Shown here in pieces: positions 3-13,273 of a stretch of 64,000 nucleotides of DNA. Below the pieces are notes generated by a model. It saw only the letters and a list, made by a program, of their open reading frames with translations. It did no database searches and had not been told where the DNA came from. Positions within the stretch are counted from its first letter, which is position 1; every line of letters begins with the position of its first letter. This DNA is from Rhodospirillaceae bacterium (GTDB lineage: Bacteria; Pseudomonadota; Alphaproteobacteria; GCA-2721365). Both the position numbers and the translations under genes were made by a program. The DNA lies in contig PBKC01000073.1 of NCBI GenBank assembly GCA_002721365.1, positions 27,225 to 91,224 on the forward strand, in the 5' to 3' direction.

Positions 3-1313
3 GGGACGGTCGCTGCATGGAACCCCGCCGCGGAGCGTCTGTTCGGCATCACGGCGGATGCGGCCCTGGGTGCCGACCTCCATACCTTGCTCAACGGAGC
101 CGGAGACCGCCTTGGCGATATGATCGCCGCGACAGGTCGGGGCGAGGCCTTCGAGCGGGAGGAAGTCGACCTTTCCCTGGGCAACGGGCGCCAACTCAGC
201 CTCTCGGTCAGTTTGGTTCCAGTCCGTGGCGGGAACGGTGCGCCGGAGAGTATGACCCTCATTGCCCAGGACCTGGCCGGCTACCAGGCCGCTCAGCGGA
301 CCGATGCGCTGTTGGCGGCGGTGGTTTCGTCCTCCGACGATGCCATCGTCAGCAAATCGCTCGAAGGCATTATCACCAGCTGGAATGCCGGTGCCGAAGC
401 CTTGCTGGGTTATACGGCCGAGGAGGTGATCGGCCGCCATATCTCGATGATCGCTCCGCCAGGGCGGAAGGACGAGATGCCGACCATTCTCGCGCGGATC
501 GCCGCCGGCAGCCGGGTCGACCATTTCGACACCCAGCGTCTCCGTAAGGATGGCCACCTCATCGACGTCTCGCTGACCGTATCGCCGATCCGGGACGGGA
601 CCGGACGCATCATCGGCGCGTCGAAGATCGCTCGCGACGTGACCGAGCGGAAGCGGAACGAGGCGCGGACGCGGCTGCTGCTCAGCGAACTCGACCACCG
701 GACCAAGAACATGCTGGCCATCGTGCAAAGCGTTCTGCGCCTGACCCAGGCCGACAACATCCGTGACTTCGTCTCGGTCGTCGAAGGACGGGTGCAGGCG
801 TTGGCCAGGGTTCACACCGAAATCGCGCACCATCGTTGGGATGGTGCCTATCTCGATTCTCTGCTGCGGATGAACGTTACGCGGGGCGTCTACCGGGATG
901 TCGAGATCAAAGGCGGGCCTACGGTTTTCCTTGGCCCGCAGGCAGCGGAAACGATCGGCATCGTTTTCTATGAACTCGCCACCAATGCAGCCCGCCACGG
1001 CGCCATGTCGATGAAGGGCGGCCGGGTCGAGGTCGACTGGGAGTTGACGGAGTCCCGAGACCTTATCCTCCGCTGGTTCGAACATGGCAGTCGCGGGTTG
1101 GATGGGCAGGCCCGGCGGGGGTTCGGCATGCGGGTGATCGAACGGCTGGTCCCCGAACAGATCCAGGGCGGCGCCCAAATCGACTGGATGGCGGATGGCC
1201 TGCAGTGCACGTTCACCATTCCAAGCGCTGCGCTCGCGCCGCCGCCTTCTCAGATACCCCCCGATCGCGAAGAAACCCTGTCGCCATCGCCCGCGCCGAA
1301 GGACTCGGGCTGA
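3..1313 (+). CDS. PAS-domain sensor histidine kinase, HWE/HisKA_2 type (5' end cut by window edge)
   Basis: Frame 3 is open from base 3 (GTVAAWNPAAERLFGI, PAS-like). A second PAS follows (IITSWNAGAEALLGYTAEEVIGRHISMI), then an HWE-type phosphoacceptor box (LLSELDHRTKNMLAIVQSVL) and an ATPase region (YELATNAARHGA). The listed ORF 87..1313 is the same frame. Confidence 0.9.
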   Translation, partial: GTVAAWNPAAERLFGITADAALGADLHTLLNGAGDRLGDMIAATGRGEAFEREEVDLSLGNGRQLSLSVSLVPVRGGNGAPESMTLIAQDLAGYQAAQRTDALLAAVVSSSDDAIVSKSLEGIITSWNAGAEALLGYTAEEVIGRHISMIAPPGRKDEMPTILARIAAGSRVDHFDTQRLRKDGHLIDVSLTVSPIRDGTGRIIGASKIARDVTERKRNEARTRLLLSELDHRTKNMLAIVQSVLRLTQADNIRDFVSVVEGRVQALARVHTEIAHHRWDGAYLDSLLRMNVTRGVYRDVEIKGGPTVFLGPQAAETIGIVFYELATNAARHGAMSMKGGRVEVDWELTESRDLILRWFEHGSRGLDGQARRGFGMRVIERLVPEQIQGGAQIDWMADGLQCTFTIPSAALAPPPSQIPPDREETLSPSPAPKDSG

Positions 1314-1334: not shown

Positions 1335-1380
1335 CGACAAAAACGGCCCCGTCCGTGGAGAAAGGGGCCGTTCTCGTTGT
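1335..1380. terminator. Stem-loop between convergent genes; intrinsic terminator best formed on the minus strand (end of the 5754->1420 cluster)
   Basis: 9-bp stem AACGGCCCC (1342-1350) / GGGGCCGTT (1364-1372). On the minus strand the hairpin is followed directly by TTTGTCG. On the plus strand it is followed by CTCGTTGT. It lies between the stops at 1313 (+) and 1420 (-). Confidence 0.6.
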
Positions 1381-1419: not shown

Positions 1420-2034
1420 TCAGCGGCCGCCGCCGCCTCCACCGCCATGTCGCATCTTTGGGCCGCCGCCCGGACCGCCGGGCATCCGGCGCTGGAACGG
1501 GTCTTCGACACCTTGCTCCGTGGCCCGTTCGCGGACACGCGCGCGAAGCTCGGCCCGGATGCGATCCCGTTCTTCCATCGATTGCGCGTTCCGCATCCGG
1601 TCGCGGAACTGCAATCGTTCGCGCTCGGTCAGCAGATTGCCGCCCGGCATCGGATCGTCGGCGTTCCAGCCTCCCTGGCGCATGCCGGCAGCCGGCATTT
1701 CATCGGGTAGGGCGATGCCCTTTTGGCGGGCCCGTTCCTGCATGAGCCGGTGATGTTCCGTACGGATGCGTTCACGCTCTTCCAGGCTCTCGGCATCCCG
1801 CAGTCTGTCACGAAGCTGTTGGCGCTCCTCGTTGGTCATCATCTCGCTGCCGTAGATCCGATCGCGGTCCTGAATCTGGTCGCGGTCGCGATCCTGCAGG
1901 CGGTCCTGGTCTTGATCCCGGAGACGATCCTGATCCTGCTGGCGGTCGCGATCCTGATCCTGGGCCATGGCCGCCGGGGCGATCGCGGTTAGGGCGACCA
2001 GCGCGATCGCGGCCAACATCGTTGTCTTGCGCAT
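1420..2034 (-). CDS. Secreted repeat protein, ZraP/CpxP/Spy-like (LTXXQ-type helical repeats) with Gly-rich C-terminus
   Basis: ATG at 2034 preceded by GAGGAGA. Signal peptide MRKTTMLAAIALVALTAIAPAAMA. A DQ/DR repeat tract follows. There are two copies of a (M/L)TxEERxQxRDRxRxAxSxEERxRIRxE unit. The protein ends ...KMRHGGGGGGGR. Confidence 0.8.
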   Translation of the reverse strand: MRKTTMLAAIALVALTAIAPAAMAQDQDRDRQQDQDRLRDQDQDRLQDRDRDQIQDRDRIYGSEMMTNEERQQLRDRLRDAESLEERERIRTEHHRLMQERARQKGIALPDEMPAAGMRQGGWNADDPMPGGNLLTERERLQFRDRMRNAQSMEERDRIRAELRARVRERATEQGVEDPFQRRMPGGPGGGPKMRHGGGGGGGR

Positions 2035-2059
2035 CGTTCTCTCCTCGACTGGTGAGGGC

Positions 2060-2998
2060 CTACATCTCGTGGACGGTGTAGATGGCCTCCCGCACTGCTT
2101 CTGCGCCAGCCTGCACCTGATCGACCTGTGCTTCGGTCATCGCCGGCAGACCGAGGATGGCGTTGAGGGCGACGACCGTGTCGTCGGTTACCGGCATCGT
2201 CTTGTCCGATGCCGCACCGAGAAAGATCGCGGCCAGATCCTCGCGCGACGCAGGCGTGACACCCGAAAGCTCAGTGGTGCCGTCGGTGACGACTTCTTTG
2301 TAGAGGGCAAGGTTCTGAAGCGGCGAATCGATCCGGACCAGGTCAGGATGCGCCAACAGATAGGCGGCTGCCTCGGGGGCCGTCATCGAATACCAGTCGG
2401 CGGTATCGCCGTTCCAGCTGCTCAGAGCTTCTCCCAGCGCCTGATCCAGAACATGGGTCGGCGCTCGCGACACGTTCAGGCGGCCGAGCTCGACTTCAGG
2501 AATGCCTTCCTGCGCCCAGGCCGGGCGGCCACCTTGGCGGGTGTCGTCCGCATTGAAGTCCTGTTCTCCGCCGCCGCCGCGCCCGGCATGGCCGGCGCTG
2601 CCGCCCTTGCCGCCGTGATCGCTGCCGTCGGTATGGTCGTGATCCTCTGCTGTGTGATCCTCGCCATCGGCGTGATCTCCACCGCTACCGCCACGACCCT
2701 TGCCGCTGCTGCCATGCTCCGAGCCGTCTTCGTGGTCGTGGGTATCGCCATCGGTATGGTCGTGCGTCGTATCCGCACCCGCGCCGGCCGCATCCAGGTC
2801 ATGGCCTCCACCGCCATGGCCCCCTCCGCCGCCGCCATGACCGCCGCCGCCATGGCCACCGCCACCCCCGGCTCCGCCGCCCTGATGCTGCGCATAGGCG
2901 GTCGCAATACCGAACTCGCCCTGGGCGAGTTGGTTCAGCCCGACCGGAATCGCAGCGAGCGCGACGACGGCCGCTGAAGCCATGAGACGTGTCTTCAT
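2060..2998 (-). CDS. Secreted Gly/His/Asp-rich protein, paralogue A of an unrecognised family
   Basis: ATG at 2998. Signal peptide MKTRLMASAAVVALAAIPV...AYA. Low-complexity region with (G4-6H) repeats and a DH-rich tract (THDHTDGDTHDHEDGSEHG...DHTAEDHDHTDGSDHG). The C-terminal domain shares EVELGRLN, IDSPLQNLALY and FLGAASDK motifs with the 3145..4368 product. Confidence 0.85.
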   Translation of the reverse strand: MKTRLMASAAVVALAAIPVGLNQLAQGEFGIATAYAQHQGGGAGGGGGHGGGGHGGGGGGHGGGGHDLDAAGAGADTTHDHTDGDTHDHEDGSEHGSSGKGRGGSGGDHADGEDHTAEDHDHTDGSDHGGKGGSAGHAGRGGGGEQDFNADDTRQGGRPAWAQEGIPEVELGRLNVSRAPTHVLDQALGEALSSWNGDTADWYSMTAPEAAAYLLAHPDLVRIDSPLQNLALYKEVVTDGTTELSGVTPASREDLAAIFLGAASDKTMPVTDDTVVALNAILGLPAMTEAQVDQVQAGAEAVREAIYTVHEM

Positions 2999-3083
2999 GT
3001 CGAACTCTTCATTTCTTGAAGCCGGCGCGAGCCGCTATCGGTGTCGCGCGGCATGAACCCACCGGGATAGGGCTGGGGACGGG

Positions 3084-3108
3084 GCGGGAGCCGCAATGCG
3101 GCCCCCGC
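3084..3108 (-). other. GC-rich intercistronic stem-loop between paralogue B and paralogue A
   Basis: Plus strand GCGGGAGCCGC-AAT-GCGGCCCCCGC gives an 11-bp stem with one G-U pair on the minus-strand RNA. No U-run follows, so it is not a canonical terminator. It may be an mRNA processing or stability element. Confidence 0.3.
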
Positions 3109-3144
3109 TGATTAAACGCCCGTCTCAGGCCCGAAGGCTTGCCG

Positions 3145-4368
3145 TCAGTGCGAGCCTTCTTCGACAGACGTCGCCGGCACTTCGTACTCGTGGATGTAGT
3201 TCACCACGGCACGGGAGTCGTCCACCGCCTGCGCGAAGCCCGCGGCAGCGGTGGCAGAGACGTCCTCGCCACCGAAGACGGCGTCGAAGATATTGACCTC
3301 GGTCACCGTCCAGGTGCCGTCACCGTCCGGATCGACGAGCACCTCCGCGGTGACGTCGCCATAGGTGCTTTCGCGGTCGTAGCTCACGCTCGTCAGGTCG
3401 ATATAGCTGCCGGTCGACGGATCGTTCACGCCGAGGATGTTGTTGGTGTACATCACCTCATCCAGCGAAAGCGGCGTGTACTTGTCGGCCGCGGCACCCA
3501 ACAGCACCGCAGCGGAGATCAGATCCTCGGCGGTGAGCTGCCCGTCGGTCAGGTTCGAGAACGCGCTGCTGACGACCGGGTTGGTCAGGCCTTCGATCGT
3601 GCCGTCGTCGATCAGGTCGAGGTAGAGGCCCATGTTCTCCAGCGGGGAGTCGATGGTCTTCCACTCGCCGTCGACCAGGACCTCCAGCCGGCCGGCCGCG
3701 TCGGTGCGGACGTCGGTCGCCGCATTCAGCGTGGCAAGGGCCTCGTCCGTCGCCCGCTCGGTGACCATGTCCGGCGCGCGGCCCATGTTCAGACGGCCCA
3801 GTTCGACTTCCTGCGTCAAGGTCTCGTCGACCGGATGGCCTTCCTCGTCGAGCGGAATCAGCGAGCCGTCTTCGGCGATCGGCTGCGGATAGCCGTCGGG
3901 ATCTTCATAAGGCTCCGTCGTGCCGTTGCCGTCACGGTCTTCCCAGACATAAAGGACCGGTTCGCCATTGTCGTTCCGGACGATGACGTAAAGGTCGCCG
4001 TACAGGCTGCCGCGATCGGTCGACGGCTTGCCGCCGCCGCCAGGCTTCTCGGCACCGCGGCCCGCGTGGTCCGGCCGGTCGGAATCGGGATCGGGCGTGC
4101 CCGCGTCGGGGTTGCCGCTACCATGTTCGCCACCGCCGTGACCGCCACCGCCGTGGCCGCCACCGCCGCCGCCGGCACCGCCACCGTGGCCGCCACCGCC
4201 ACCACCTTGGCCCTGGCCACCACCGCCGCCACCGCCGTGGTCCTGCGCGAACGCCTTCGAGACGACGACGTTCACGCCGTCATGAGAAGAAAACCCAACA
4301 GGGGCAACAATGAAAGCCACTGCAGCTGCGCTGGACAGCAGTGTGTTTCGCAAAACAGACTGAGACAT
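3145..4368 (-). CDS. Secreted Gly/His-rich protein, paralogue B (longest; extra DxDxDG-like loops)
   Basis: The listed ORF 3145..4473 is trimmed to the ATG at 4368 (MSQSVLRNTLLSSAAAVAFIVAPV...), which is preceded by GAAGAGG. It contains (G6-7H) repeats and motifs EVELGRLNMGRAP, IDSPLENMGLY and LLGAAADK. The insert and C-terminal extension carry EDRDGNGT and DPDGDGT loops. Confidence 0.85.
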   Translation of the reverse strand: MSQSVLRNTLLSSAAAVAFIVAPVGFSSHDGVNVVVSKAFAQDHGGGGGGGQGQGGGGGGHGGGAGGGGGGHGGGGHGGGEHGSGNPDAGTPDPDSDRPDHAGRGAEKPGGGGKPSTDRGSLYGDLYVIVRNDNGEPVLYVWEDRDGNGTTEPYEDPDGYPQPIAEDGSLIPLDEEGHPVDETLTQEVELGRLNMGRAPDMVTERATDEALATLNAATDVRTDAAGRLEVLVDGEWKTIDSPLENMGLYLDLIDDGTIEGLTNPVVSSAFSNLTDGQLTAEDLISAAVLLGAAADKYTPLSLDEVMYTNNILGVNDPSTGSYIDLTSVSYDRESTYGDVTAEVLVDPDGDGTWTVTEVNIFDAVFGGEDVSATAAAGFAQAVDDSRAVVNYIHEYEVPATSVEEGSH

Positions 4369-4490
4369 TACTGCAACCTCTTCTTTGTATGTGTTTCCCG
4401 CACAATGGCCAGATTTCTGGTTCATCTTATAATTTTGATGAAGGATGTCCTTTATCCAGATTAAACTGGCCAAGATATTCGTGTATTCGG

Positions 4491-4946
4491 TCAGCGACGA
4501 TAGATTTTATTCTCGATGTTCCAGCCGCCGCTGGGGCAAACGAAATCCTCGCCGCCAGCGCCACCACCGGTGATTCCGCTGGTGGTATAGGCGCCGCCGA
4601 CATCGGGTTCGATGACATCGACCCGATCGCCGCCACCCGGGCCGCCGCCCTGTCCGCCACCGGCGCGACCCGGCCCGAAACCGCCACGGCCGCTGCCGTC
4701 CTGGAAGGGGCATGCCGGATTGGCGCCCTTGTGCTGGCCACCGCCATGACCGCCGCCTCCATGGCCGCCGCCGCAACCGCCGCCGCCACAACCACCGCCG
4801 CCGGCGTGATCGCCGTCGTCATGGCCCTGGGCCAAGGCCTGGGCGCCAAAATGAAGTCCTTCTGCAGACTGATGGATGGGCATGGCGAAGACCGCGATGG
4901 TCGCCACGCCGACGAGAAGACTCAGCGCCTTCTTGCGAAAGCTCAT
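4491..4946 (-). CDS. Small secreted Gly/His/Cys-rich protein
   Basis: The listed ORF 4491..5120 is trimmed to the ATG at 4946, preceded by AGGAGA. Signal peptide MSFRKKALSLLVGVATIAVFAMP. Sequence includes GHDDGDHAGGGGCGGGGCGGGHGGGGHGGGQH, then PACPF and FVCPSGGW (4 Cys in total). Confidence 0.75.
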   Translation of the reverse strand: MSFRKKALSLLVGVATIAVFAMPIHQSAEGLHFGAQALAQGHDDGDHAGGGGCGGGGCGGGHGGGGHGGGQHKGANPACPFQDGSGRGGFGPGRAGGGQGGGPGGGDRVDVIEPDVGGAYTTSGITGGGAGGEDFVCPSGGWNIENKIYRR

Positions 4947-4980
4947 ATCCGTGTTCTCCTGTTCGACTGTGGTTGTGCCG

Positions 4981-5754
4981 TCAGCGCCGGCCCGCCTGAA
5001 CGATCCGGGCCTGGTCCGCGATGGCATTCGCCTGCTGCTCGCTCGTGGTGACGCAGAGAACGGTGTTGACCGTGTCGATAACGTCAGTGGAAACCGGGCG
5101 CGTGGCGATGATGCCGACATATGTGCCTGCGGTTGCTGTATCGACCGCGGACTGTTCCAAGGCTTCCTGATAGTTCGCCAGGATGTAGATCGGCGAACGG
5201 AAGCTCTCTGGGCTGAATTCTGGTGCGAGATAGACCTGGGCGATGTTCAGCCGCTCGAGATTTCTGCCGGACAGCCGCCGGTTCGGCGACATCTGAGCCG
5301 GGTCGTAATCGGCGCAACGGTCGCCACGTCCGAGCAGCAGATCCTCGCCGCCGATGCCGCCGCCGACCGACTCGAGGAACGTCGAATCGGATGCGAGGTC
5401 TTCGTCGTCACCGGGAGGGGGCGCCGGTGGCTCGTCGCTCTCGGCGCCGCCGAACCGGTTCTGGTTGACGCCGCCGGGGCCTGTCGAGTTGCCTTGTCCG
5501 CCTGAGTTGTCGCCGGCGCCGGCATTGGTGCCGCCAGCACCGTGGCTGGAACTGCTCGGACCAGCCGTGCCGCTGGTCGCGGTTCCGCCTGATCCTTCCG
5601 TGGCACCTGCCCGGTTCTGGTTATTCTGGGCATAGGCCGGTTTGCCGAGCGCAGAGTAGGTGGCGAAACCGCCTGGATCGTCGGGTAGGGAGGCAAAGCC
5701 GAAAGCCATTACGGCGACTGCTCCCCCCGAGAGCAGTTTGTTCCAGCTCTTCAT
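4981..5754 (-). CDS. Secreted Gly/Ser/Asn-rich protein, divergent paralogue C
   Basis: ATG at 5754 preceded by GAGGAGGAAAA. Signal peptide MKSWNKLLSGGAVAVMAFGFASL. The C-terminal part aligns by eye with paralogues A and B: RNLERLNIAQ vs EVELGRLNVS, PIYILANYQEAL vs SPLQNLALYKEV, and TYVGIIATRPVSTDVIDTVNTVL vs AIFLGAASDKTMPVTDDTVVALNAIL. Confidence 0.8.
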   Translation of the reverse strand: MKSWNKLLSGGAVAVMAFGFASLPDDPGGFATYSALGKPAYAQNNQNRAGATEGSGGTATSGTAGPSSSSHGAGGTNAGAGDNSGGQGNSTGPGGVNQNRFGGAESDEPPAPPPGDDEDLASDSTFLESVGGGIGGEDLLLGRGDRCADYDPAQMSPNRRLSGRNLERLNIAQVYLAPEFSPESFRSPIYILANYQEALEQSAVDTATAGTYVGIIATRPVSTDVIDTVNTVLCVTTSEQQANAIADQARIVQAGRR

Positions 5755-6134
5755 GTTCGGTTTTCCTCCTCTGCGACGTCTTCAGTTACCGTGTTCTGAT
5801 AGGGTAAGAGCGGATTCCCAGAAACAAACTGGATCAAATGGCCGCGTCAAATTTCACAGTCAGAATTTGCGAATGTGCGCATAGAAGCATCTAGCGGTCG
5901 CTCCAAGTGCCTGCGACACGGGAATTCAGGAGCGGGAAACGACGACACAACGTTGGTGCGCCAAGTGGTGCCCGCAGCCGGAAGCATCCCTCCGCAGCCG
6001 CGCACCGCGATAATCGTTAAAGCCAGTCTTGCAGACCGCATGCGCCGCAAGACGCAGCAAAAGTTTAATGCAGTTTCCGATCCGATCGTTCCATCTGCTG
6101 ATGTTTCAAGCGGATATGGAGCGCGCGAGGACTG

Positions 6135-7772
6135 CTAGTATTGAACGCCGAAACGTATAAAGATCTGGTTTCGTACGTAGTCGGCGGCGGAATTTTCCGA
6201 ATCGCGCTTCTGATAGCGGTAGTCGGCGCCGACGAAATAGTTGCTGTTGATCAGATAGCGGATGCCACCGCCAAGGCTGGTCTCACGATCGGTCCGAGTG
6301 CTGCTCTCGAAATCGCTTTCCGCGTAGGAGGCACGGAGGGTCGCGAACAGGTTGCGAATGATCTGATATTCGACTTCCGCTCCATAGGAGCTGAGGACGT
6401 AGCCCGGCGAGCCGATCAACGTGGTTTCCTCGATCGTCCGGTCCGTCCACCCCGAAAGAACGGTCGACGGGATGGGACGCCAGTAGACGCTGCCGCTGAA
6501 GGCCATCTCACTGAAATCTTCCAGCAGAATGTCGTCGTAATCCCGACGCATGTAGCCGACGGCCGCTTCCGCGCTCAACTTGCCGGTGATCCGCGCCGTC
6601 ATGCCGCTCATGACGCGGACGCCCGTCGAGTCACGGTCGAACCCGAAATCGTCGACGGCCGTATCGTAGGTGCGGATGTCGACGGTGCCCTGGACGAAGG
6701 GCTGGATAACGTCGGTAAGGGCGTAGCTCAGCCGGCCACCGACGGAATATCGGGTCCGGTCACGGTCGTCGTTGTTGAAGACGACCGCCGCGGCCGGGGT
6801 GTCGTCGAAATCCAGCCGGTCGACGTCGATGCCGCCCCTGACCGAAATCCCGGCAAAGGCATGGTAGGCACCGAGATAGGCGGTGGTATTCCGGTAGATC
6901 GTTGGTTCCAGCCCGTTGACGTCGTCGGGCGAATCGCGGTCTTCGTGGTCGCGTCCGTAGGCGAGCCCGCCGAAGACCTCGGTATCGTCGTCGATATCGT
7001 ATCGACCTTCACCGCTGAGGTCGTAGTCGATCGAGTTCTCGGAGGAGAAGTCTTCGTAGCGGACGACGTCCGTACCGACCTCGAAATTCAGCGCGTGCTT
7101 GTCCCAATCCGAGTTCAGGTAAAGCGTCGGCGCGAACACGGCGACGCGGTCGATCCTTTCGTTGGTCGGCGTCGCGAAGATGTTGTCGTCCCAGTAACCG
7201 GCGACCAGCAGTTCCGGGTAGAGCACGAACGATCCCACATCGTATCCGAGAGTGCGCTGCCGACGTACCTGCGGGGGCTGCTGCGAATCGCCGAGGGCGC
7301 CCGTCGCGCCGGTGGTGGCCGGTGCGCCTTCCTCAGCCCCTTCGCTGACCCGGGCGGACGGCAGGCTTGGTGGCGGCTCCAGCGCCACAACAGCACTTAC
7401 GGCCCGCGTGGCGGCTTCCGCGACCGCCGCCCGGACCGCCGGCGGTGCCGCATCCGCGATGCGGGCGACGATGGACCGATAGACGGGAAGGTTGTTGCCG
7501 CGGAACGTCAGGACCGGCCGCGCGGCGGCATCCGCCAAGGAAGCGGCGCTATCGGGGGTGCCGACAAGCGCCGGATTGGCGGAGATCGCTGCATCCAACG
7601 CGTTCAGCAGGGCTGCGGGGCCTTCGCTCGCCGCATCCGACAACTGGGTCGCGACCGATTCCGAAACAGGGGCGGCCATGACCGGCAGGGCGCCCACTAG
7701 TCCCAGAGAAAGGATCGCTGCTCCAAATGTCGATATTGCCCGCGCTTTAGTCGTTCCGATGCTCGATCCCAC
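6135..7772 (-). CDS. Outer-membrane beta-barrel protein (BBP2/DUF2320-like)
   Basis: GTG start at 7772 with AAGGTGG upstream. Signal peptide ...AILSLGLVGALPVMAAP, followed by an Ala-rich linker. Alternating-residue beta-strand pattern from YDVGSFVLYPELLVAGYWDDNIFAT onward. C-terminus ...IFIRFGVQY is an aromatic terminal residue typical of OMPs. Confidence 0.85.
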   Translation of the reverse strand: MGSSIGTTKARAISTFGAAILSLGLVGALPVMAAPVSESVATQLSDAASEGPAALLNALDAAISANPALVGTPDSAASLADAAARPVLTFRGNNLPVYRSIVARIADAAPPAVRAAVAEAATRAVSAVVALEPPPSLPSARVSEGAEEGAPATTGATGALGDSQQPPQVRRQRTLGYDVGSFVLYPELLVAGYWDDNIFATPTNERIDRVAVFAPTLYLNSDWDKHALNFEVGTDVVRYEDFSSENSIDYDLSGEGRYDIDDDTEVFGGLAYGRDHEDRDSPDDVNGLEPTIYRNTTAYLGAYHAFAGISVRGGIDVDRLDFDDTPAAAVVFNNDDRDRTRYSVGGRLSYALTDVIQPFVQGTVDIRTYDTAVDDFGFDRDSTGVRVMSGMTARITGKLSAEAAVGYMRRDYDDILLEDFSEMAFSGSVYWRPIPSTVLSGWTDRTIEETTLIGSPGYVLSSYGAEVEYQIIRNLFATLRASYAESDFESSTRTDRETSLGGGIRYLINSNYFVGADYRYQKRDSENSAADYVRNQIFIRFGVQY

Positions 7773-7905: not shown

Positions 7906-7948
7906 CCGAAAAGCACAGGACTGTTGCGCAAAGGCAACAGTCCTGTGC
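7906..7948 (-). terminator. Rho-independent terminator (minus strand)
   Basis: Perfect 15-bp stem GCACAGGACTGTTGC (7913-7927) / GCAACAGTCCTGTGC (7934-7948) with a 6-nt loop. On the minus strand it is followed by TTTTCGG. It lies downstream of the small ORF 8118..8216 and upstream of the OMP promoter. Confidence 0.75.
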
Positions 7949-8216: not shown

Positions 8217-8290
8217 CGTCCTTGTCCTTTCGTACCCGGCGACGAGCCGCCGGGTGACGGGTATTTAGGGCTTGTGGAAATATCGAGAAA

Positions 8291-8305
8291 GCGAAATATT
8301 TTCGC
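8291..8305. promoter_or_regulatory. Palindrome in the AT-rich divergent promoter region (candidate LysR-type binding site)
   Basis: GCGAAA-TAT-TTTCGC (6-bp arms) at 8291-8305. A second inverted repeat is AATATCGA (8279-8286) / TCGATATT (8323-8330). Both lie within the AT-rich 8270-8335 stretch between the small ORF and the LysR start. Confidence 0.35.
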
Positions 8306-8336
8306 GGTTAAATTCGTTATTTTCGATATTACGGCG

Positions 8337-9200
8337 ATGGACATCGAAGACGCCCGAACCTTCATGGAGATCGTCGAGGCCGGCAGCTTCGTCCATGCCG
8401 CCATAAGGCTGAACGTTACGCAGTCGACGGTCAGCGCCCGGATCAAGGAGCTGGAGCTCCGCCTCGGTCAGCCGCTCTTCGTGCGCAGCAAAGCCGGAGC
8501 GACAATGACGCCTGCCGGGCTGCGCTTCCGCCGCCATGCGGAGACCATCCTCAAGGCGTGGCGCCAGGCGCGGCAGGAGATCGCGCTTCCCCCGGACTAC
8601 CGGGCGGTGCTCGCCGTCGGCGGCCAGTTCAGTCTGTGGGATGGATTTCTTTTGGAGTGGCTGCGGCGGATGCGGACCCTCGCCCCGGATATCGCCTTGC
8701 GGACCGAGGTGGCACAGTCCGACGAACTGATGCGCCAGCTCTCGGAGGGCGTTCTCGATCTCGGGGTCATGTATACGCCCCAGAGCCGGGCCGGACTGTC
8801 GGTCGAACAGCTTCTGGTCGATACCATGATCCTGGTCTCGACGGAGCGCGGATCCGGCGGGGTCGGCGATCCCGGCTATGTCTACGTGGACTGGGGGCCT
8901 GAGTTCCAGGCCGCCCACAGCCTCGCGTTTCCCGACCTGCAGACGCCGGGGCTGGCGATCTCGCTGGGGGCGCTGGCGCTTCAGCACCTGTTGGCGGTCG
9001 GTGGATCCGGCTTCCTGCCGGCCCGTGTCGTGGCGCCGCTTCTGGCGGCAGGACGGCTGTTCAGGGTCGGCGATGCGCCTGAATTCGCGCGGCCCGCCTA
9101 TGCGGTCTACCGGGCCGGCAGCGAGGACGAGGCGATGGCCGAAGCCCTCCACCTGCTCCGCGAGTTGGCGGCGGAGAAGGCGGAAGGCAACGGCAAGTGA
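8337..9200 (+). CDS. LysR family transcriptional regulator
   Basis: ATG at 8337 (MDIEDARTFMEIVEAGSFVHAAIRLNVTQSTVSARIKELELRLGQPLFVR) matches the canonical LTTR wHTH. A substrate-binding-like C-terminal domain follows. Confidence 0.9.
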   Translation: MDIEDARTFMEIVEAGSFVHAAIRLNVTQSTVSARIKELELRLGQPLFVRSKAGATMTPAGLRFRRHAETILKAWRQARQEIALPPDYRAVLAVGGQFSLWDGFLLEWLRRMRTLAPDIALRTEVAQSDELMRQLSEGVLDLGVMYTPQSRAGLSVEQLLVDTMILVSTERGSGGVGDPGYVYVDWGPEFQAAHSLAFPDLQTPGLAISLGALALQHLLAVGGSGFLPARVVAPLLAAGRLFRVGDAPEFARPAYAVYRAGSEDEAMAEALHLLRELAAEKAEGNGK

Positions 9201-9206
9201 GGGGGC

Positions 9207-10091
9207 TCAGCCGATCTCGCCGGTGACCCAGTAGTCGATCCGGGCCTTGTTGTTGGCGATGTAGTTGTCGACGGCTTCTTCGTAGGAGGTCTCGTTCGCC
9301 TCGAACATCATCGCTTCCAGATCGTCGAGCGGCAGGTACATCCGGGTCAGGAACTCGGCCACGTCGGGGTGATCCTGATAGAGCCCCTTGCGGGCCAGCA
9401 CATGCACGCGCTCGAGCCCGCCCAGCACATGCTTCGGGTCCTTGAGGTAACGGAGGTCCCAGCGGGCGAACATCCAGTGCGGGCTCCAGCCGGTGACGAC
9501 GATCCACTCGTCGCGGCGGATCGCACGGTCGAGCGCGGCGGTCATCGCCGCACCGCTGGCCGAAATCAGCTCGTAGTCGTCCAGACCGTATTCCTCGATC
9601 GCGTTCTCGGAGGCCTGCATCAGCCCGGCGCCGGGATCGATGCCCTGAATCTTGTCACCGAACTTGTCCGCGATGCCGTCCTTCTTCAGGTCGGCGATCG
9701 AGCTCACCTGGTTCTCGGGCACATAGGCCGGCACCACCCAGCCGAGCCGGGCACGGGTATAGAGCGGACCCAGATTGACCACCTCGCCGGCGAACTTCTT
9801 CCAATAGTTCTGGTGGGTCACCGGCAGCCACGACATCAGCATGACGTCGAGGTCCTCGTTGGCCACGCCCTGATACTGAATGCCGATATCGGCCATGGTC
9901 ATGTTGACCGTGTAGCCCATCCGGTCTTCCAGAATCTTGGTCGCGAGCTTGGTGACGGCCTCGGCGTCCGACCATGCGGTCCAGCCGATGGTGATTTCCT
10001 TGTCCTGGGCCGCGGCCGGCCCGAGGCTCGCACCGGCCACGACCAGGGCGGCGGCGAGGCAGGTGGCGGCTCGTCTGAAGAACTCCGTCAT
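9207..10091 (-). CDS. proX: Glycine betaine/proline ABC transporter substrate-binding protein
   Basis: ORF trimmed to the ATG at 10091 (MTEFFRRAATCLAAALVVAGASLGPAAAQDKEITIGWTAWSDAEAV...). It has a signal peptide and OpuAC-type sequence, and sits last in a proV-proW-proX order. Confidence 0.88.
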   Translation of the reverse strand: MTEFFRRAATCLAAALVVAGASLGPAAAQDKEITIGWTAWSDAEAVTKLATKILEDRMGYTVNMTMADIGIQYQGVANEDLDVMLMSWLPVTHQNYWKKFAGEVVNLGPLYTRARLGWVVPAYVPENQVSSIADLKKDGIADKFGDKIQGIDPGAGLMQASENAIEEYGLDDYELISASGAAMTAALDRAIRRDEWIVVTGWSPHWMFARWDLRYLKDPKHVLGGLERVHVLARKGLYQDHPDVAEFLTRMYLPLDDLEAMMFEANETSYEEAVDNYIANNKARIDYWVTGEIG

Positions 10092-10164
10092 GCTGTCTCT
10101 CCTCTTCCTCTGATGGTTTGCGGTAGGCGGCAAGCGCGCCGCCCGGTGACCCGTTCGGGCCCGT

Positions 10165-11040
<876 letters not shown>

Positions 11041-11043
11041 GGT

Positions 11044-12234
11044 TCAGGCCTCCTGGTCGAGGGTTTGAAGAAGGACCGTCTTCGATATCGCTCCGCGATA
11101 TCGCCCATCGGCCTCGACCACCGGCACCGGGCAGGGGCTGCCGGCGACCTGGCCGATGACCTCGCTCAGGGCGGTATCGGCCTGAACCGCCTGGACGTCG
11201 TCCAGGATCGCGCCGCTGAAACCGGGGTCGTCGCCGTCGAGTGCCTCGCGCAGCGAAGAGACCGAGACCACGCCCTGGAAGCGGCGGTGGCGGTCGATGA
11301 CGTAGCCGTACTCGCGATCATAGTCCCGGAGCATCCGCGCCGCCGCCTCGACACCCTTGTCGGCCCGGTCGATGACAGTCACCTGCTCCCGCCGGGCGAC
11401 GTCGCCGGCCGTCAGGACCTTCGACGCCGGCACGCTGCGGAAGAAGGATTCGACGTAGTCGTCGGCGGGGTTCTTGAGAATTTCCTGCGGCGTCCCGATC
11501 TGGACGATCCGACCGCCGGCCATGATGGCGATGCGGTCGCCGATGCGGAGCGCTTCGTCGAGGTCATGGGAGACGAAGACGATCGTCCGTTCGCTGTCCG
11601 CCTGCAAACGCAGCAGTTCGTCCTGCATTTCCGCCCGGATCAAGGGGTCGAGCGCCGAGAACGCCTCGTCCATCAGCATGATCGATGGGTCCGTGGCCAG
11701 CGCCCGGGCAAGGCCCACCCGCTGTTGCATACCGCCCGACAACTCGGACGGGTAGCTGCCGGCGTTGGCCTTGAGCCCGACCTTGTCGAGCGCCGCCAGC
11801 GCCCGCTCCTGCCGTTCCTCGGCGGGAACCCCGGCAATCTCCATCCCGAAGGCGACGTTCTCGGCGACCTTCAGATGCGGCATCAGGGCGAATGACTGGA
11901 ACACCATGCTCATGTCGCGACGCCTGAGGTCGATCAGCTCGGCCCGCGACATCGCCGTCACGTCCTTGCCGTCTATGGTGATGCGGCCGCTGGTCGGCTC
12001 GATCAGCCGGTTGAGAAGCCGGATGAGCGTCGACTTTCCCGATCCCGACAGCCCCATCAGCACGAAGATCTCGCCCGTCCGCACGGTCAGCGATGCGTCG
12101 GCGACTCCGATGGTCTGGCCCGTCCGTTCGTATATCGCGTCCTTGTCCTGCCCTTCTTTCAGCAGCGCCAAGGCGGCGTCGGGACGGCCTCCGAAAATCT
12201 TGTAGACGTTCTCGACGACGAGCTTATCGGACAT
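11044..12234 (-). CDS. proV: Glycine betaine/proline ABC transporter ATP-binding protein with C-terminal CBS pair
   Basis: Walker [10 protein letters not shown], signature [15 protein letters not shown], Walker [13 protein letters not shown]. The C-terminal CBS-like region ([17 protein letters not shown]...) is typical of ProV/OpuAA. Confidence 0.93.
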
Positions 12235-12619
12235 GAACCAAAATCGATCGGGGGCGTCGGTCCAGGTTGGACCGTCGCTACAATAGACTGCGCTACGACG
12301 ATAGCCAAACCATATATCCCTGGGCCGCCGCCGATCAAGTCAGCGGCCAATATTTCCCGAAATCACAGTCCGTCAGCAGCGTTTGTATTCGGCGAAGGAC
12401 GCCAAATCATCATGAGAAGTAAACGCCCAATGTTATCCATGAAGGATATATTCGAGATTTTTTCAGAGAATAATTTCGTTTCTTTGGGCGTGTGTTGGGA
12501 ATCGGGACGAGGCAACCATGTGAGATGATTGCGCGACGACGCATCGGGAGCAAGGTGCTGCGGGGTGAGGCGCCGTGTTCCGACTTCCGTTGGATGGTCC
12601 AACGGCGGCGAAGCGGTTT

Positions 12620-13273
12620 CTAGGACTGGGTGCCGCCCCAGCGCTCCTGGAGGCTCGCCAGATTGGCGCTATGGGTAATGAGGACGACCTCGTCACGCTC
12701 CTTCACCGTCGTATCACCGTCGGGTATCAGGAAGCCGTCGCCCCGATAGATGCAGACCGCCCGTGACTTCTCGGGCAGGCCGAGATCGGCGATCGTGCCT
12801 GCTTCGTCCTTGCCGGCGATGAAGGAGAAGAAGCGGACGTCGCCCTTGATCATCGTCGAGATCTCGAACACGTCGCGGCCGTTCACCAGATCGGCGAGAA
12901 TCCGGGCGATCGTCCGATGGGGAACGATCGTGTCCTGAAGGCCGAGTTCGATGCAGATATGCTCGAATTCGGGGTCGTGGATCTGCGTCACCACGCGCTG
13001 GAAACCGAGCGACCGGCCGACCAGAGCGGCCAGGATGTTGTCCTGGTCGTCGTTGGTGAGGCAGAGCAGAAGGTCCGTGCCCTTCGGCCCTACCTCGCGA
13101 AGGATCGCCGGGCGGCTGCCGTCTCCGTGGATGAAGCCGCAGTCGAGTTGTTGGGCGAGCTGCTCGACCTTGTCCTTGTCGCGCTCGACCATGATCACGT
13201 CATGACCCTGGTGAAGCAGAATCTCGGCCGTGGCGATCGCCTCCTGGCTGCCGCCGATCAGGACTACTCTCAT
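12620..13273 (-). CDS. trkA: TrkA-family K+ uptake regulatory protein (RCK N+C domains)
   Basis: ORF trimmed to the ATG at 13273 (MRVVLIGGSQEAIATAEILLHQGHDVIMVERD). This is a Rossmann GxGxxA-type TrkA-N followed by TrkA-C. The ATGA overlap with the trkH stop at 13270-13273 suggests translational coupling. Confidence 0.88.
   Translation of the reverse strand: MRVVLIGGSQEAIATAEILLHQGHDVIMVERDKDKVEQLAQQLDCGFIHGDGSRPAILREVGPKGTDLLLCLTNDDQDNILAALVGRSLGFQRVVTQIHDPEFEHICIELGLQDTIVPHRTIARILADLVNGRDVFEISTMIKGDVRFFSFIAGKDEAGTIADLGLPEKSRAVCIYRGDGFLIPDGDTTVKERDEVVLITHSANLASLQERWGGTQS

What the first reader, a model, noticed from the sequence alone, without database searches (positions are those of the whole stretch)
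1420..5754. Five-gene same-strand cluster encoding only signal-peptide-bearing Gly/His/Asp-rich proteins: candidate undescribed periplasmic metal-handling or envelope system
Seen: five consecutive minus-strand genes (4981-5754, 4491-4946, 3145-4368, 2060-2998, 1420-2034). Each has a good RBS and an N-terminal signal-peptide-like segment. The gaps are 34, 122, 146 and 25 nt. The array ends at a hairpin plus T-run (1335-1380), and I saw no canonical terminator inside it. Every product has a long Gly-rich low-complexity region. Three have (G4-7H)n tracts, one has a dense Asp/His tract, and the last gene resembles ZraP/CpxP/Spy. I recognise no enzyme, transporter or regulator domain in the cluster. 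Established: His-rich and Asp/His-rich periplasmic segments (ZnuA loops, ZraP termini) bind Zn/Ni/Cu, and ZraP/CpxP/Spy act in envelope stress. Inference: the locus encodes a periplasmic metal-buffering or chaperone set, or possibly a secreted matrix, built around a protein family I cannot place.
Basis: partly seen in the sequence, partly recalled or inferred. Interest (0 to 1): 0.8.

Follow-up and report, generated by a model that had tools for sequence, protein, structure and literature searches.

The report
Conserved outer-membrane barrel plus Gly/His-rich proteins
The five genes are real. Together with an overlooked neighbouring outer-membrane barrel gene they form a self-contained cassette conserved across Proteobacteria, built on a protein domain with no known relative or fold, so its function is still unknown but now testable.

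Summary
All five minus-strand ORFs, the gaps, the RBSs, the (G4-7H)n and Asp/His tracts and the terminator are as described.

Two corrections:
- The unit most likely includes the upstream same-strand gene 6135-7772, an 18-strand BBP2_2 (PF10082) outer-membrane barrel.
- Gene E matches no CpxP/Spy/ZraP model. The likeness is compositional only.

C and D share a roughly 150-aa domain (A distantly). It is 52-63% identical to D in relatives from Alpha-, Beta- and Gammaproteobacteria and is also found in Sulfuricurvum. It has no Pfam or NCBIfam model, no PDB sequence hit and no Foldseek match, although the all-helical AF2 model is confident (pLDDT 90.7).

The domain occurs in 262 of 185,579 species genomes. 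An outer-membrane barrel gene lies in the fetched stretch (10 kb or less each side) in 69 of 82 loci, usually adjacent. A, B and E recur. No enzyme, ABC transporter or metal-homeostasis gene recurs.

Best guess (0.35): Sec-exported proteins with N-terminal Gly/His/Asp-rich disordered tracts are exported through, or anchored at, the dedicated barrel to form a cation-binding envelope or surface layer. Purely periplasmic metal buffering remains a live rival.

The cassette is uncharacterised and novel.

The parts
6135..7772 (-). Outer-membrane barrel gene (545 aa). It comprises a signal peptide (1-32), a helical periplasmic N-domain (38-129), a disordered linker (134-173) and an 18-strand BBP2_2 barrel (177-544).
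   Evidence: Pfam PF10082 E=4.8e-101. AF2 model pLDDT 85.9 with 18 strands. Foldseek finds only generic large barrels. Close homologues sit next to D-family genes.
5755..6134 (-). 380-nt spacer between the barrel gene and gene A. It presumably holds the promoter of the A-E operon. No recognisable operator was found.
   Evidence: No inverted repeat, no sigma-70-like site on the minus strand, no EcfG-type motif.
4981..5754 (-). Gene A (257 aa): long pre-sequence, a Gly/Ser/Asn-rich disordered tract, then a C-terminal domain with an invariant Cys pair. It is a distant paralogue of the D domain.
   Evidence: Alignment A5 has C147 and C234 invariant. hhalign A5 vs A2 gives 98% probability, E=1.7e-13, over the last 54 columns. 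Found in 30 of 82 loci.
4491..4946 (-). Gene B (151 aa): a small secreted protein with 41% Gly, CGGGGC and GGGGH tracts, 4 Cys, and a conserved C-terminal motif G.IGGG.GGE.F[VI]....G.W.....K[IV][LF]RR.
   Evidence: Homologues were read directly. B was detected in 19 loci, 17 of which also carry the helical N-domain of the barrel; the other two B hits look spurious or truncated.
3145..4368 (-). Gene C (407 aa): the long paralogue. It has a (G6H)n tract, an extra Asp-rich middle segment, the D-type domain, and a C-terminal extension with a DPDGDG motif.
   Evidence: BLASTP C vs D E=7e-14. A 244-aa hit (P0003) from Minwuia thermotolerans is 75% identical, and the long type recurs in Gammaproteobacteria.
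2060..2998 (-). Gene D (312 aa): the core family member. It has a (G4-6H)4 tract, an Asp/His tract, the junction motif RPAWAQEGIPEVELGRLNVSRAP, and a roughly 140-aa all-helical domain.
   Evidence: AF2 pLDDT 90.7 with 8 helices. No PDB or BFVD fold match. 262 species genomes carry it. 646 representative clusters match.
1420..2034 (-). Gene E (204 aa): canonical signal peptide, a Q/D/R-rich repeat region, two copies of a helical motif (M/L)Txx(E)Rxx(L/F)RDR(L/M)RxAxSxEERxRIR, and a Gly-rich tail.
   Evidence: Alignment A4. E-family genes are in 22 of 82 loci. No Pfam, NCBIfam or PDB match.
1339..1371 (-). Intrinsic terminator closing the array: 7-8 bp G+C stem, 13-nt loop, T5.
   Evidence: Read from the sequence.
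2800..2863 (-). Period-15 tandem repeat encoding (GGGGH)n in D. Equivalent arrays lie at 4128-4236 (C) and 4735-4826 (B).
   Evidence: Tandem Repeats Finder. A near-identical relative (P0001) differs from D by one Gly in a Gly run further downstream in the disordered tract (GRGGGGEQ vs GRGGGEQ), outside this array.

Best explanation
The locus is a six-gene, self-contained envelope module. It consists of an 18-strand BBP2_2 outer-membrane barrel (6135-7772) and five Sec-exported partner proteins (A-E).

A-D share one design. After the pre-sequence the mature N-terminus is a hydrophilic, acidic, Gly-rich disordered tract, usually His- and Asp/Glu-rich. A folded C-terminal domain follows; in C, D and (distantly) A it is one novel helical domain. 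B has a conserved C-terminal motif instead.

Most likely mechanism (inferred, not shown):
1. The proteins reach the periplasm through Sec.
2. The conserved junction motif (K/R)P(V/A)WAQEGIPEVELGRLNV and the helical domain dock on the barrel. In the alphaproteobacterial type, docking would also involve the barrel's helical periplasmic N-domain together with A and B.
3. The Gly-rich tracts are threaded through, or exported by, the barrel.
4. The cell thereby carries an outer-membrane-anchored or surface layer of disordered Gly/His/Asp-rich chains that can bind divalent cations or protons.
5. E is a frequent but dispensable periplasmic helper.

Shown: gene content, conservation, co-occurrence, the folds, and the absence of any known family.
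Inferred: direction of transport, topology and ligand.
For: 1. Linkage of the D family to a barrel gene. A BBP2_2 barrel is in 52 of 82 loci. An unrelated roughly 270-aa barrel lies directly downstream in 17 more (Rhodobacteraceae). At least 4 of the remaining 13 loci are cut by contig ends.

2. Reciprocal test. Three further homologues of the window's barrel were checked. The two closer ones (40% and 36% identity) again sit beside D-family genes. The most distant one (32% identity) sits in a polysaccharide-export locus without them.

3. Self-contained cassette. Unbiased clustering of all ORFs within 7 kb found no other recurrent partner except A, B, E and generic regulators.

4. Co-variation of architecture. 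The barrel's helical N-domain co-occurs with B (17 of 19 loci). Gamma-type barrels with two fused OmpA-like barrels pair with the long (C-type) plus short (D-type) proteins. Beta-type barrels pair with D plus a long A plus E.

5. Shared tract composition. Distantly related or unrelated families in the cassette carry N-terminal Gly-rich tracts: A, B, C and D in the window, and beta-type A homologues with GGGH tracts elsewhere. In the D family the tract is a median 31% Gly. This implies a shared property that is selected for.

6. Oxidising compartment. A has an invariant Cys pair, and no product has a cytoplasmic-type domain.

7. Precedent. The Gly-rich N22 segment at the mature N-terminus of CsgA binds the outer-membrane channel CsgG and suffices to send heterologous proteins to the surface (PMC7217966).

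8. Channel size. An 18-strand barrel is in the same size class as AlgE and OprD-type channels, wide enough for an unfolded Gly-rich chain.
Against: - No experiment or structure shows translocation or even contact. AF2-multimer was not available.
- The barrel type is not constant. The roughly 270-aa barrel of Rhodobacteraceae is unlikely to export a folded domain, which favours anchoring or docking over full secretion.
- The helical D domain, not the disordered tract, is the conserved part. That could equally mean a periplasmic function.
- 13 of 82 loci show no barrel in the fetched stretch.
- The barrel gene is separated from A by 380 nt and may be transcribed separately. In several genomes it is divergent.
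- The curli analogy rests on composition, not homology.
Confidence: 0.35

Rival explanations
1. Periplasmic metal buffer or metallochaperone set. The His/Asp-rich Gly tracts of B, C and D sequester Zn, Ni, Cu or Co in the periplasm. E acts like ZraP or Spy. The barrel is only a co-regulated porin for the same cation.
For: - The D tract has 13% His and 19% Asp+Glu.
- Family-wide His in the tract is a median 7.8%, roughly four times a typical proteome level (the comparison figure is from general knowledge), and 30% of members have at least 10%.
- B has CGGGGC motifs.
- E homologues end in GGMGGGMGGG tails, which recall the C-terminus of ZraP (the ZraP comparison is from memory).
- Some barrels give a weak CopB hit (E=0.0015, below the cut-off).
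Against: - 20% of members have under 2% His in the tract.
- The conserved domain has no Cys and one conserved His.
- No metal transporter, metal sensor or metal-type two-component system recurs nearby. The adjacent two-component systems score best as OmpR/EnvZ-like, below the cut-off.
- E fails the CpxP/Spy/ZraP profiles.
- No copy was found on 72,556 plasmids, where metal-resistance islands often travel.
Confidence: 0.25
2. Accessory or gating subunits of a channel. The D-type helical domain (with A and B) binds the periplasmic face or lumen of the barrel as a plug or regulator, in the manner of LptE in LptD or MtrA in MtrB. The disordered tracts act as flexible tethers or capture lines for a substrate that moves through the pore.
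For: - Tight genetic coupling, and co-variation of partner sets with barrel architecture.
- The conserved extended junction motif has low pLDDT, as expected of a docking peptide.
- MtrB and plugged TonB-type barrels are among the structural neighbours.
Against: - The Foldseek hits are generic for any large barrel.
- Two to four paralogous partners per barrel is unusual for a plug.
- The partner barrel family changes between lineages while the D domain remains 52-63% identical to the window's D.
Confidence: 0.15
3. Envelope stress protectants. The hydrophilic Gly-rich disordered proteins act like hydrophilins, dehydrins or Asr, protecting the periplasm and outer membrane against osmotic, desiccation or acid stress. 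His and Asp would act as a pH buffer.
For: - The tracts of C and D, and mature E, have GRAVY of -1.3 to -1.7 with well over 6% Gly.
- The window neighbours are osmoprotection genes: a ProU-type glycine-betaine ABC system and TrkA/TrkH.
- OmpR/EnvZ-like two-component systems flank the Rhodobacteraceae version.
- Hosts include an acidophile (Acidocella) and many soil MAGs.
Against: - Flanking genes differ from genome to genome, so the osmoprotection neighbours may be coincidence.
- No general-stress (EcfG-type) promoter lies near the cluster.
- The idea does not explain the strongly conserved folded domain or the dedicated barrel.
Confidence: 0.12
4. Protein accessories of an exopolysaccharide export pore. 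BBP2_2 barrels such as EpsL sit in polysaccharide loci, and A-D would scaffold or anchor a polymer.
For: - The window's barrel hits EpsL and PEP-CTERM-associated barrel models weakly (E about 1e-11, far below the cut-off).
- A more distant homologue lies among Wza, Wzz, Wzy and WecG genes.
Against: - That polysaccharide-linked homologue has no A, B, D or E neighbours.
- No glycosyltransferase or Wza/Wzz-type gene recurs within 7 kb of the cassette in the 82 loci.
Confidence: 0.05

Closest known systems
Curli secretion (type VIII): CsgA N22 segment and the CsgG channel
   Same: - An operon of Sec-exported proteins plus a dedicated outer-membrane channel.
- The substrate's mature N-terminus is a Gly-rich segment that targets it to the channel (PMC7217966). 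That the CsgA segment also contains His is from memory.
- The substrates are disordered in the periplasm.
   Different: - There is no CsgG-type lipoprotein channel, no curlin repeats and no amyloid-type repeat core. No curli family appeared in the Pfam scans.
- The channel here is a monomeric 18-strand barrel.
- The cargo ends in a folded helical domain.
- The Gly tracts are 80-125 aa long, not 22.
Slam / type XI secretion (DUF560 barrel with a periplasmic N-domain and neighbouring cargo genes)
   Same: - A barrel with a helical periplasmic N-terminal domain.
- The barrel is encoded next to the signal-peptide proteins it would serve.
- Several paralogous cargoes occur per locus.
   Different: - PF04575 gives only 13.4 bits against a cut-off of 22.
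- The barrel has 18 strands rather than 14 (the Slam strand count is from memory).
- The cargo are not lipoproteins and have a helical domain, not the beta-barrel domain of Slam cargo.
ZraP / Spy / CpxP periplasmic chaperones (LTXXQ, PF07813; Metal_resist, PF13801)
   Same: Gene E is a small, periplasmic, helical, highly charged protein with (L/M)TxxE(R) motifs and a Gly-rich tail, as ZraP has.
   Different: - There is no match to PF07813 or PF13801 at E<=1.
- NCBIfam CpxP gives E=0.12, 12 bits against a cut-off of 160.
- The E-family profile finds no Spy, CpxP or ZraP chain in the PDB at E<=10.
BBP2_2 / EpsL-type barrels of exopolysaccharide and PEP-CTERM loci
   Same: The barrel is a full-length PF10082 member.
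   Different: - EpsL TIGR03014 scores 45 bits against a cut-off of 275, and TIGR03016 scores 44.7 against 90.85.
- There are no polysaccharide genes in the cassette.
- PF10082 itself has no characterised member that I could find in the literature.
RcsF threaded through OmpA/C/F; LptE in LptD
   Same: A periplasmic folded domain joined to a disordered N-terminal linker that could pass through a barrel lumen.
   Different: - There is no lipobox and no homology.
- The linker is three to four times longer.
- The comparison is from memory and was not tested.

Membership tests
BBP2_2 (PF10082) outer-membrane barrel | Full-length match above the Pfam gathering score | tested here: met
   338.8 bits against a cut-off of 23.7; profile positions 5-378 of 378 are matched. 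This applies to ORF 6135-7772 only.
BBP2_2 (PF10082) outer-membrane barrel | Beta-barrel fold with a signal peptide and a C-terminal aromatic residue | tested here: met
   The AF2 model has 18 strands with pLDDT above 90 in the barrel. The protein ends ...RFGVQY.
EpsL / PEP-CTERM-associated barrel (TIGR03014, TIGR03016) | Score above the NCBIfam cut-off and a polysaccharide or exosortase gene context | tested here: not met
   45.1 bits against 275, and 44.7 against 90.85. No polysaccharide genes recur beside the cassette.
CpxP / Spy / ZraP (PF07813 LTXXQ, PF13801 Metal_resist) | Profile match of gene E or its homologues | tested here: not met
   No Pfam hit at E<=1 for E or for eight homologues. 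NCBIfam CpxP E=0.12. The family profile finds no Spy, CpxP or ZraP chain in the PDB at E<=10.
CpxP / Spy / ZraP | Cradle-shaped helical dimer fold | not tested
Slam / type XI secretion (PF04575, DUF560) | DUF560 barrel above the cut-off; cargo with a C-terminal 8-strand barrel domain | tested here: not met
   13.4 bits against 22. The cargo domain is all-helical.
Curli / type VIII secretion | CsgG-type channel and curlin-repeat subunits | tested here: not met
   No CsgG or curlin-repeat hit in the Pfam scans of the six window proteins or of homologues.
Curli / type VIII secretion | Gly-rich segment at the mature N-terminus that targets the protein to the outer-membrane channel | tested here: inconclusive
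   Gly-rich tracts begin immediately after the predicted AxA|Q site in B, C and D; in A a Gly/Ser/Asn-rich tract (26% Gly) starts within a few residues. Whether they target anything cannot be tested here.
Known metal-binding periplasmic proteins (ZnuA-type loops, PcoE/SilE, CusF and similar) | Homology to a characterised metal-binding family, or a conserved metal site in the fold | tested here: not met
   No Pfam, NCBIfam or PDB match. The conserved columns of the D domain contain no Cys and one His.
Known metal-binding periplasmic proteins | Actual metal binding or metal-responsive expression | not testable with these tools
   Needs ITC or ICP-MS and RNA-seq.
Hydrophilins (Gly above 6% and mean hydrophilicity above 1) | Whole mature protein meets both criteria | tested here: inconclusive
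   Mature E meets them (GRAVY -1.72, 11% Gly). Mature A-D do not (GRAVY -0.48 to -0.73), although the tracts of C and D do (-1.34 and -1.44).

The most novel reading that the evidence does not exclude
The cassette is a previously unrecognised outer-membrane export or display pathway for intrinsically disordered proteins. A dedicated 18-strand BBP2_2 barrel recognises a conserved junction motif and helical domain, and threads long Gly/His/Asp-rich chains to the cell surface. There they would form a metal- or proton-responsive, cross-linkable coat. The D domain would be a new fold that defines the cargo class.
Probability: 0.2. Interest if true: 0.85.

Novelty: categorically new. Interest (0 to 1): 0.62.

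Why it matters
Five of the six proteins belong to families with no Pfam or NCBIfam model, no solved or fold-matched relative and no literature. The sixth belongs to a Pfam family (PF10082) for which I found no characterised member. Even so, the set is kept together, and the core domain remains 52-63% identical to the window's D, across Alpha-, Beta- and Gammaproteobacteria, and it also occurs in a Sulfuricurvum genome.

That level of conservation for a self-contained barrel-plus-secreted-proteins module points to a specific envelope function that current annotation cannot see.

If the barrel exports or anchors the disordered chains, this would be a new route across, or a new structure at, the Gram-negative outer membrane. 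It would also give the BBP2_2 family its first assigned role.

If the chains are instead periplasmic metal or proton buffers, it would be a new class of bacterial Gly/His-rich disordered metal-binding proteins.

Either way, cultured hosts make the question directly testable: Acidocella aquatica, Pandoraea cepalis, Thioclava spp., Roseomonas sp. HF4 and Minwuia thermotolerans.

Tried and rejected
- Pfam and NCBIfam on A-E gave nothing above noise.
- Pfam on all 57 members of the D alignment gave no recurrent weak hit.
- Pfam on homologues of A, B, C and E gave nothing.
- Profile searches of the D and E families against PDB sequences gave nothing.
- Foldseek of the D model against the PDB and BFVD: best E=1.9 and 0.3, TM about 0.2. 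This rules out lysozyme/SLT-like, globin-like, AhpD-like and peptidoglycan-binding folds as confident matches.
- tblastn of the D domain against 72,556 plasmids found no match.
- Literature searches for PF10082, BBP2_2 and DUF2320, and for Gly/His-rich periplasmic disordered proteins, found nothing relevant to this family.
- A general-stress (EcfG) promoter motif is absent near the cluster.
- No sigma-70-like site or operator lies in the A upstream region.
- Heavy-metal two-component systems: the adjacent ones score best as OmpR/EnvZ or CreBC-like, not CopRS/CzcRS-like.
- Crp-type regulators are adjacent in only about 4 loci, so they were rejected as part of the module.
- Multihaem cytochromes lie nearby in only 5 of 82 loci, 4 of them Gammaproteobacteria MAGs, so they were rejected as part of the module.
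- An AMP-binding enzyme is near the cassette in 8 loci at variable positions and was rejected.
- The apparent barrel-D fusion in Thiohalobacter (P0115) lacks the last barrel strands, the D signal peptide and most of the tract. It looks like a deletion remnant, not a functional fusion.
- The small Rhodobacteraceae barrel shows no pairwise similarity to the BBP2_2 barrel or to the fused OmpA-like barrels.

Full report
**1.

The five minus-strand ORFs are at the stated coordinates. I call them A (4981-5754, 257 aa), B (4491-4946, 151 aa), C (3145-4368, 407 aa), D (2060-2998, 312 aa) and E (1420-2034, 204 aa).

- The gaps are 34, 122, 146 and 25 nt.
- Each start is preceded by a purine-rich Shine-Dalgarno-like sequence.
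- E has a canonical 24-aa signal peptide ending AMA|Q.
- A-D have an n-region and a hydrophobic stretch, then an unusual 15-20 aa spacer before an AxA|Q site. This gives pre-sequences of 36-42 aa. The same layout runs through the wider family.
- I could not run SignalP, so the cleavage sites are read from the sequence only.
- The mature proteins are hydrophilic. A-D are acidic (pI 4.1-5.6) and E is near neutral (pI 6.4). The disordered parts of A-D are 26-51% Gly.
- The (G4-7H)n tracts in B, C and D are encoded by imperfect 15-nt tandem repeats.
- D carries the Asp/His tract.
- A hairpin with a T5 run closes the array at about 1339-1371 on the minus strand.

Three corrections are needed. E has only a short Gly tail. 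E is not detectably related to ZraP, CpxP or Spy (see section 5).

**2. The overlooked sixth gene**

ORF 6135-7772 lies on the same strand, 380 nt upstream of A. It is a full-length BBP2_2 (PF10082) outer-membrane protein (E=4.8e-101).

An AF2 model built on 36 homologues (pLDDT 85.9) shows these parts:

| Residues | Feature |
|---|---|
| 1-32 | signal peptide |
| 38-129 | compact helical periplasmic domain (pLDDT about 96) |
| 134-173 | disordered linker |
| 177-544 | 18-strand barrel |

Foldseek finds only generic large barrels: OprD/Occ and AlgE at TM about 0.5, plus TonB-dependent receptors, MtrB and BcsC. The scores against EpsL and PEP-CTERM-associated models are far below their cut-offs. 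I found no paper on PF10082.

**3. The core family**

- C and D share a C-terminal domain (BLASTP E=7e-14).
- A is a distant paralogue. Its family profile aligns to the D-family profile with 98% probability (E=1.7e-13) over the last three helices.
- A profile of the three domains found 741 proteins in the 5.8-billion-protein collection. The 120 listed carry no name beyond 'hypothetical' or 'uncharacterized', and none has a Pfam domain except the Thiohalobacter fusion remnant.
- The domain is well conserved: 52-63% identity to D in relatives from Alpha-, Beta- and Gammaproteobacteria.
- The invariant motifs are (K/R)P(V/A)WAQEGIPEVELGRLNV(A/S)RAP, IDSPLxNL.LY and AAIFLG(S/A)ASDK.
- An exhaustive HMMER pass over 1.84 billion representatives gives 646 clusters at E<=1e-3 and 384 at E<=1e-10. 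The 150 listed are 79-413 aa long, too short to carry a substantial extra domain.
- AF2 predicts a confident all-helical domain of eight helices (pLDDT 90.7, pTM 0.82). The junction motif ahead of it has low confidence, consistent with an extended peptide.
- There is no match in PDB sequences, in PDB structures (best E=1.9, TM 0.2) or in BFVD.
- No Pfam family recurs even weakly across 57 members.
- The conserved columns contain no Cys and one His.

**4. Co-occurrence**

A scan of one genome per species (185,579 species) found 262 confirmed loci. Hosts include:

- Acidocella aquatica, Thioclava spp., Pandoraea cepalis, Defluviimonas, Celeribacter and Puniceibacterium;
- Polaromonas, Bordetella and Sulfuricurvum MAGs;
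- many soil and marine MAGs.

I built profiles for each window protein and mapped them on 82 loci. The counts are:

| Component | Loci (of 82) |
|---|---|
| BBP2_2 barrel | 52 |
| A | 30 |
| B | 19 |
| E | 22 |

Four architectures recur:

- **Alphaproteobacteria:** barrel, A, B, D, sometimes E. The genes are colinear or the barrel is divergent. Examples are L002, L085 and L086.
- **Gammaproteobacteria, Sulfuricurvum and a 'delta' MAG:** a large barrel (BBP2_2 fused to two OmpA-like 8-strand barrels), most often followed by a long C-type and a short D-type protein (some loci have one D-type gene only), sometimes with E.
- **Betaproteobacteria:** barrel, D, one or two long A-type proteins that carry their own GGGH tracts, and E.
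- **Rhodobacteraceae:** D, D, then directly an unrelated roughly 270-aa barrel with no Pfam model (17 loci).

So 69 of 82 loci hold an outer-membrane barrel gene within the fetched stretch (10 kb or less each side), usually adjacent to D. At least four of the remaining 13 are cut by contig ends.

The window carries the superset: barrel, A, B, C, D and E.

The reciprocal test agrees. Three further homologues of the window's barrel were checked. The two closer ones again sit beside D-family genes. The most distant one (32% identity) sits in a Wza/Wzz/Wzy polysaccharide locus without them.

The barrel's helical N-domain co-occurs with B in 17 of the 19 loci where B was detected.

Unbiased clustering of every ORF within 7 kb found no other recurrent partner. 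In particular it found no glycosyltransferases, no dedicated ABC or type I secretion components, no metal pumps and no metal sensors.

Flanking genes differ from genome to genome.

**5. Gene E**

E and its homologues share this layout:

- a signal peptide;
- a Q/D/R- or Q/N-rich low-complexity stretch;
- one or two copies of a helical motif, YG.Q(L/M)MT..ER...R.R(M/L)R.A.(T/S)..ER.R(I/L)R.EHH..MQERA...GV.LP;
- often a Gly- or Gly/Met-rich tail.

None hits LTXXQ, Metal_resist or any other Pfam family. NCBIfam CpxP scores 12 bits against a cut-off of 160. The family profile does not find Spy, CpxP or ZraP among PDB chains at E<=10. Membership is therefore not met. A functional analogy (small charged helical periplasmic helper) remains possible.

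**6. What the disordered tracts say**

In 93 D-family members the tract between the pre-sequence and the junction motif has this median composition:

| Residue class | Median |
|---|---|
| Gly | 31% |
| His | 7.8% |
| Asp+Glu | 12.5% |
| Lys+Arg | 9% |

His is at least 5% in 66% of members, at least 10% in 30%, and under 2% in 20%. Gly-richness is therefore universal. His/acid-richness is common but not obligatory.

The same composition appears in distantly related or unrelated families of the cassette: A of Betaproteobacteria, B, C and D. This argues that the tract itself is under selection.

A near-identical relative of D (P0001) differs by one Gly within a Gly run of the disordered tract. 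So tract length is variable.

**7. Mechanism**

I commit, at 0.35, to a barrel-coupled model. A-D cross the inner membrane by Sec. The junction motif and helical domain dock on the barrel; in the alpha type, docking would also involve the barrel's N-domain together with A and B. The Gly-rich N-terminal tracts are threaded through, or exported by, the 18-strand barrel. The result would be an outer-membrane-anchored or surface layer of Gly/His/Asp-rich chains able to bind cations or protons.

The nearest precedent for the logic is curli. There the Gly-rich N22 segment at the mature N-terminus of CsgA binds the outer-membrane channel CsgG and is sufficient to direct heterologous proteins to the surface (PMC7217966). 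No part here is homologous to curli parts.

What is shown: composition, folds, conservation and linkage. Every transport or topology step is inferred.

The change of barrel type between lineages, above all the small Rhodobacteraceae barrel, favours anchoring or docking over full secretion of a folded domain.

Rivals:

It is supported only by composition, and no metal-related neighbours recur.
- Plug or gating subunits of a channel (0.15).
- Hydrophilin- or Asr-like stress protectants (0.12). In this window the neighbours are a LysR regulator, a ProU-type betaine ABC system and TrkAH, and OmpR/EnvZ-like systems flank the Rhodobacteraceae form. This context is not conserved.
- Polysaccharide-export accessories (0.05).

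**8. Novelty and score**

Five of the six proteins have no model, no fold match, no name and no literature. The sixth belongs to a Pfam family for which I found no characterised member. The cassette is rare (about 0.14% of species genomes) but phylogenetically broad and strongly conserved.

I rate it categorically new at the level of protein family and gene module. The caveat is that the function is unknown and could turn out to be a variation on periplasmic metal or stress buffering.

Interest is 0.62. This is a solid, testable lead rather than a demonstrated new mechanism.

Noticed in passing
window 7913-7948: A perfect 15-nt inverted repeat (GCACAGGACTGTTGC N6 GCAACAGTCCTGTGC) lies about 140-175 nt upstream of the barrel gene start. 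It sits in the 500-nt spacer shared with a divergent LysR-type regulator gene (8274-9200, +). It could be an operator or a hairpin.
   Followed up: partly
window 8274-14733: A block of osmoprotection genes lies next to the cassette: a LysR regulator, an OpuAC-type glycine-betaine binding protein (9207-10280, -), an ABC ATPase with CBS domains (11044-12234, -), and TrkA (12620-13453, -) and TrkH (13270-14733, -). This context is not conserved in other genomes.
   Followed up: partly
window 87-1313 (+) and 1374-1406: A PAS plus HWE-type histidine kinase, closest to blue-light LOV kinases but below the cut-off, converges on gene E. It has its own 13-bp hairpin terminator on the plus strand, so the spacer holds back-to-back terminators.
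   Followed up: no
window 2060-5754; family members: A-D and most D-family members have an odd pre-sequence. The hydrophobic stretch is followed by a 15-20 aa spacer, often with P, G and an aromatic residue, before the AxA site. It is unclear whether this is a long signal peptide, a second recognition element or a signal anchor.
   Followed up: partly
L001 9650-11164 (Thiohalobacter thiocyanaticus, P0115): The barrel gene is broken, and its truncated 3' part is fused in frame to a D gene that lacks its signal peptide and most of its Gly tract. This is probably a decaying copy. A Crp-type regulator gene lies just upstream, as it does in Roseomonas sp. HF4 (L086).
   Followed up: partly
L037-L074 (Rhodobacteraceae), e.g. 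L061 10577-11386: A roughly 270-aa predicted outer-membrane barrel with no Pfam model replaces the BBP2_2 barrel directly downstream of the D-D pair in 17 loci. An OmpR-like response regulator is often on the opposite strand.
   Followed up: partly
L010, L014/L083, L018, L028 (Gammaproteobacteria MAGs): Large multihaem cytochrome genes (8-15 CXXCH motifs) lie near the cassette in these four MAGs. In L083 NapB-type and Fe-S protein genes flank it as well. The association is confined to this lineage.
   Followed up: partly
L017 9057-9557, L024 8952-9608 (B homologues): Some B-family proteins carry twin-arginine-like motifs (SRRRLLK, PRRRLLG) in the n-region, whereas the window's B has FRKKAL. 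The export route of B may therefore differ between lineages.
   Followed up: no
L088 6001-13398: A more distant BBP2_2 homologue (32% identity) sits in a Wza / Wzz-kinase / Wzy / WecG polysaccharide locus without any A, B, D or E gene. This suggests the cassette's barrel is a specialised offshoot of polysaccharide-associated barrels.
   Followed up: partly
window 3145-4368 (protein C): C contains two DxDxDG-like motifs (EDRDGNGT and VDPDGDGT) of the kind that bind calcium in other proteins. They are not conserved in the gammaproteobacterial long paralogue.
   Followed up: no
window 6135-7772: Public annotation (P0121, 514 aa) starts this gene 31 codons downstream, which would remove the signal peptide. 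The GTG start at 7772 restores a normal signal peptide ending VMA|A.
   Followed up: partly
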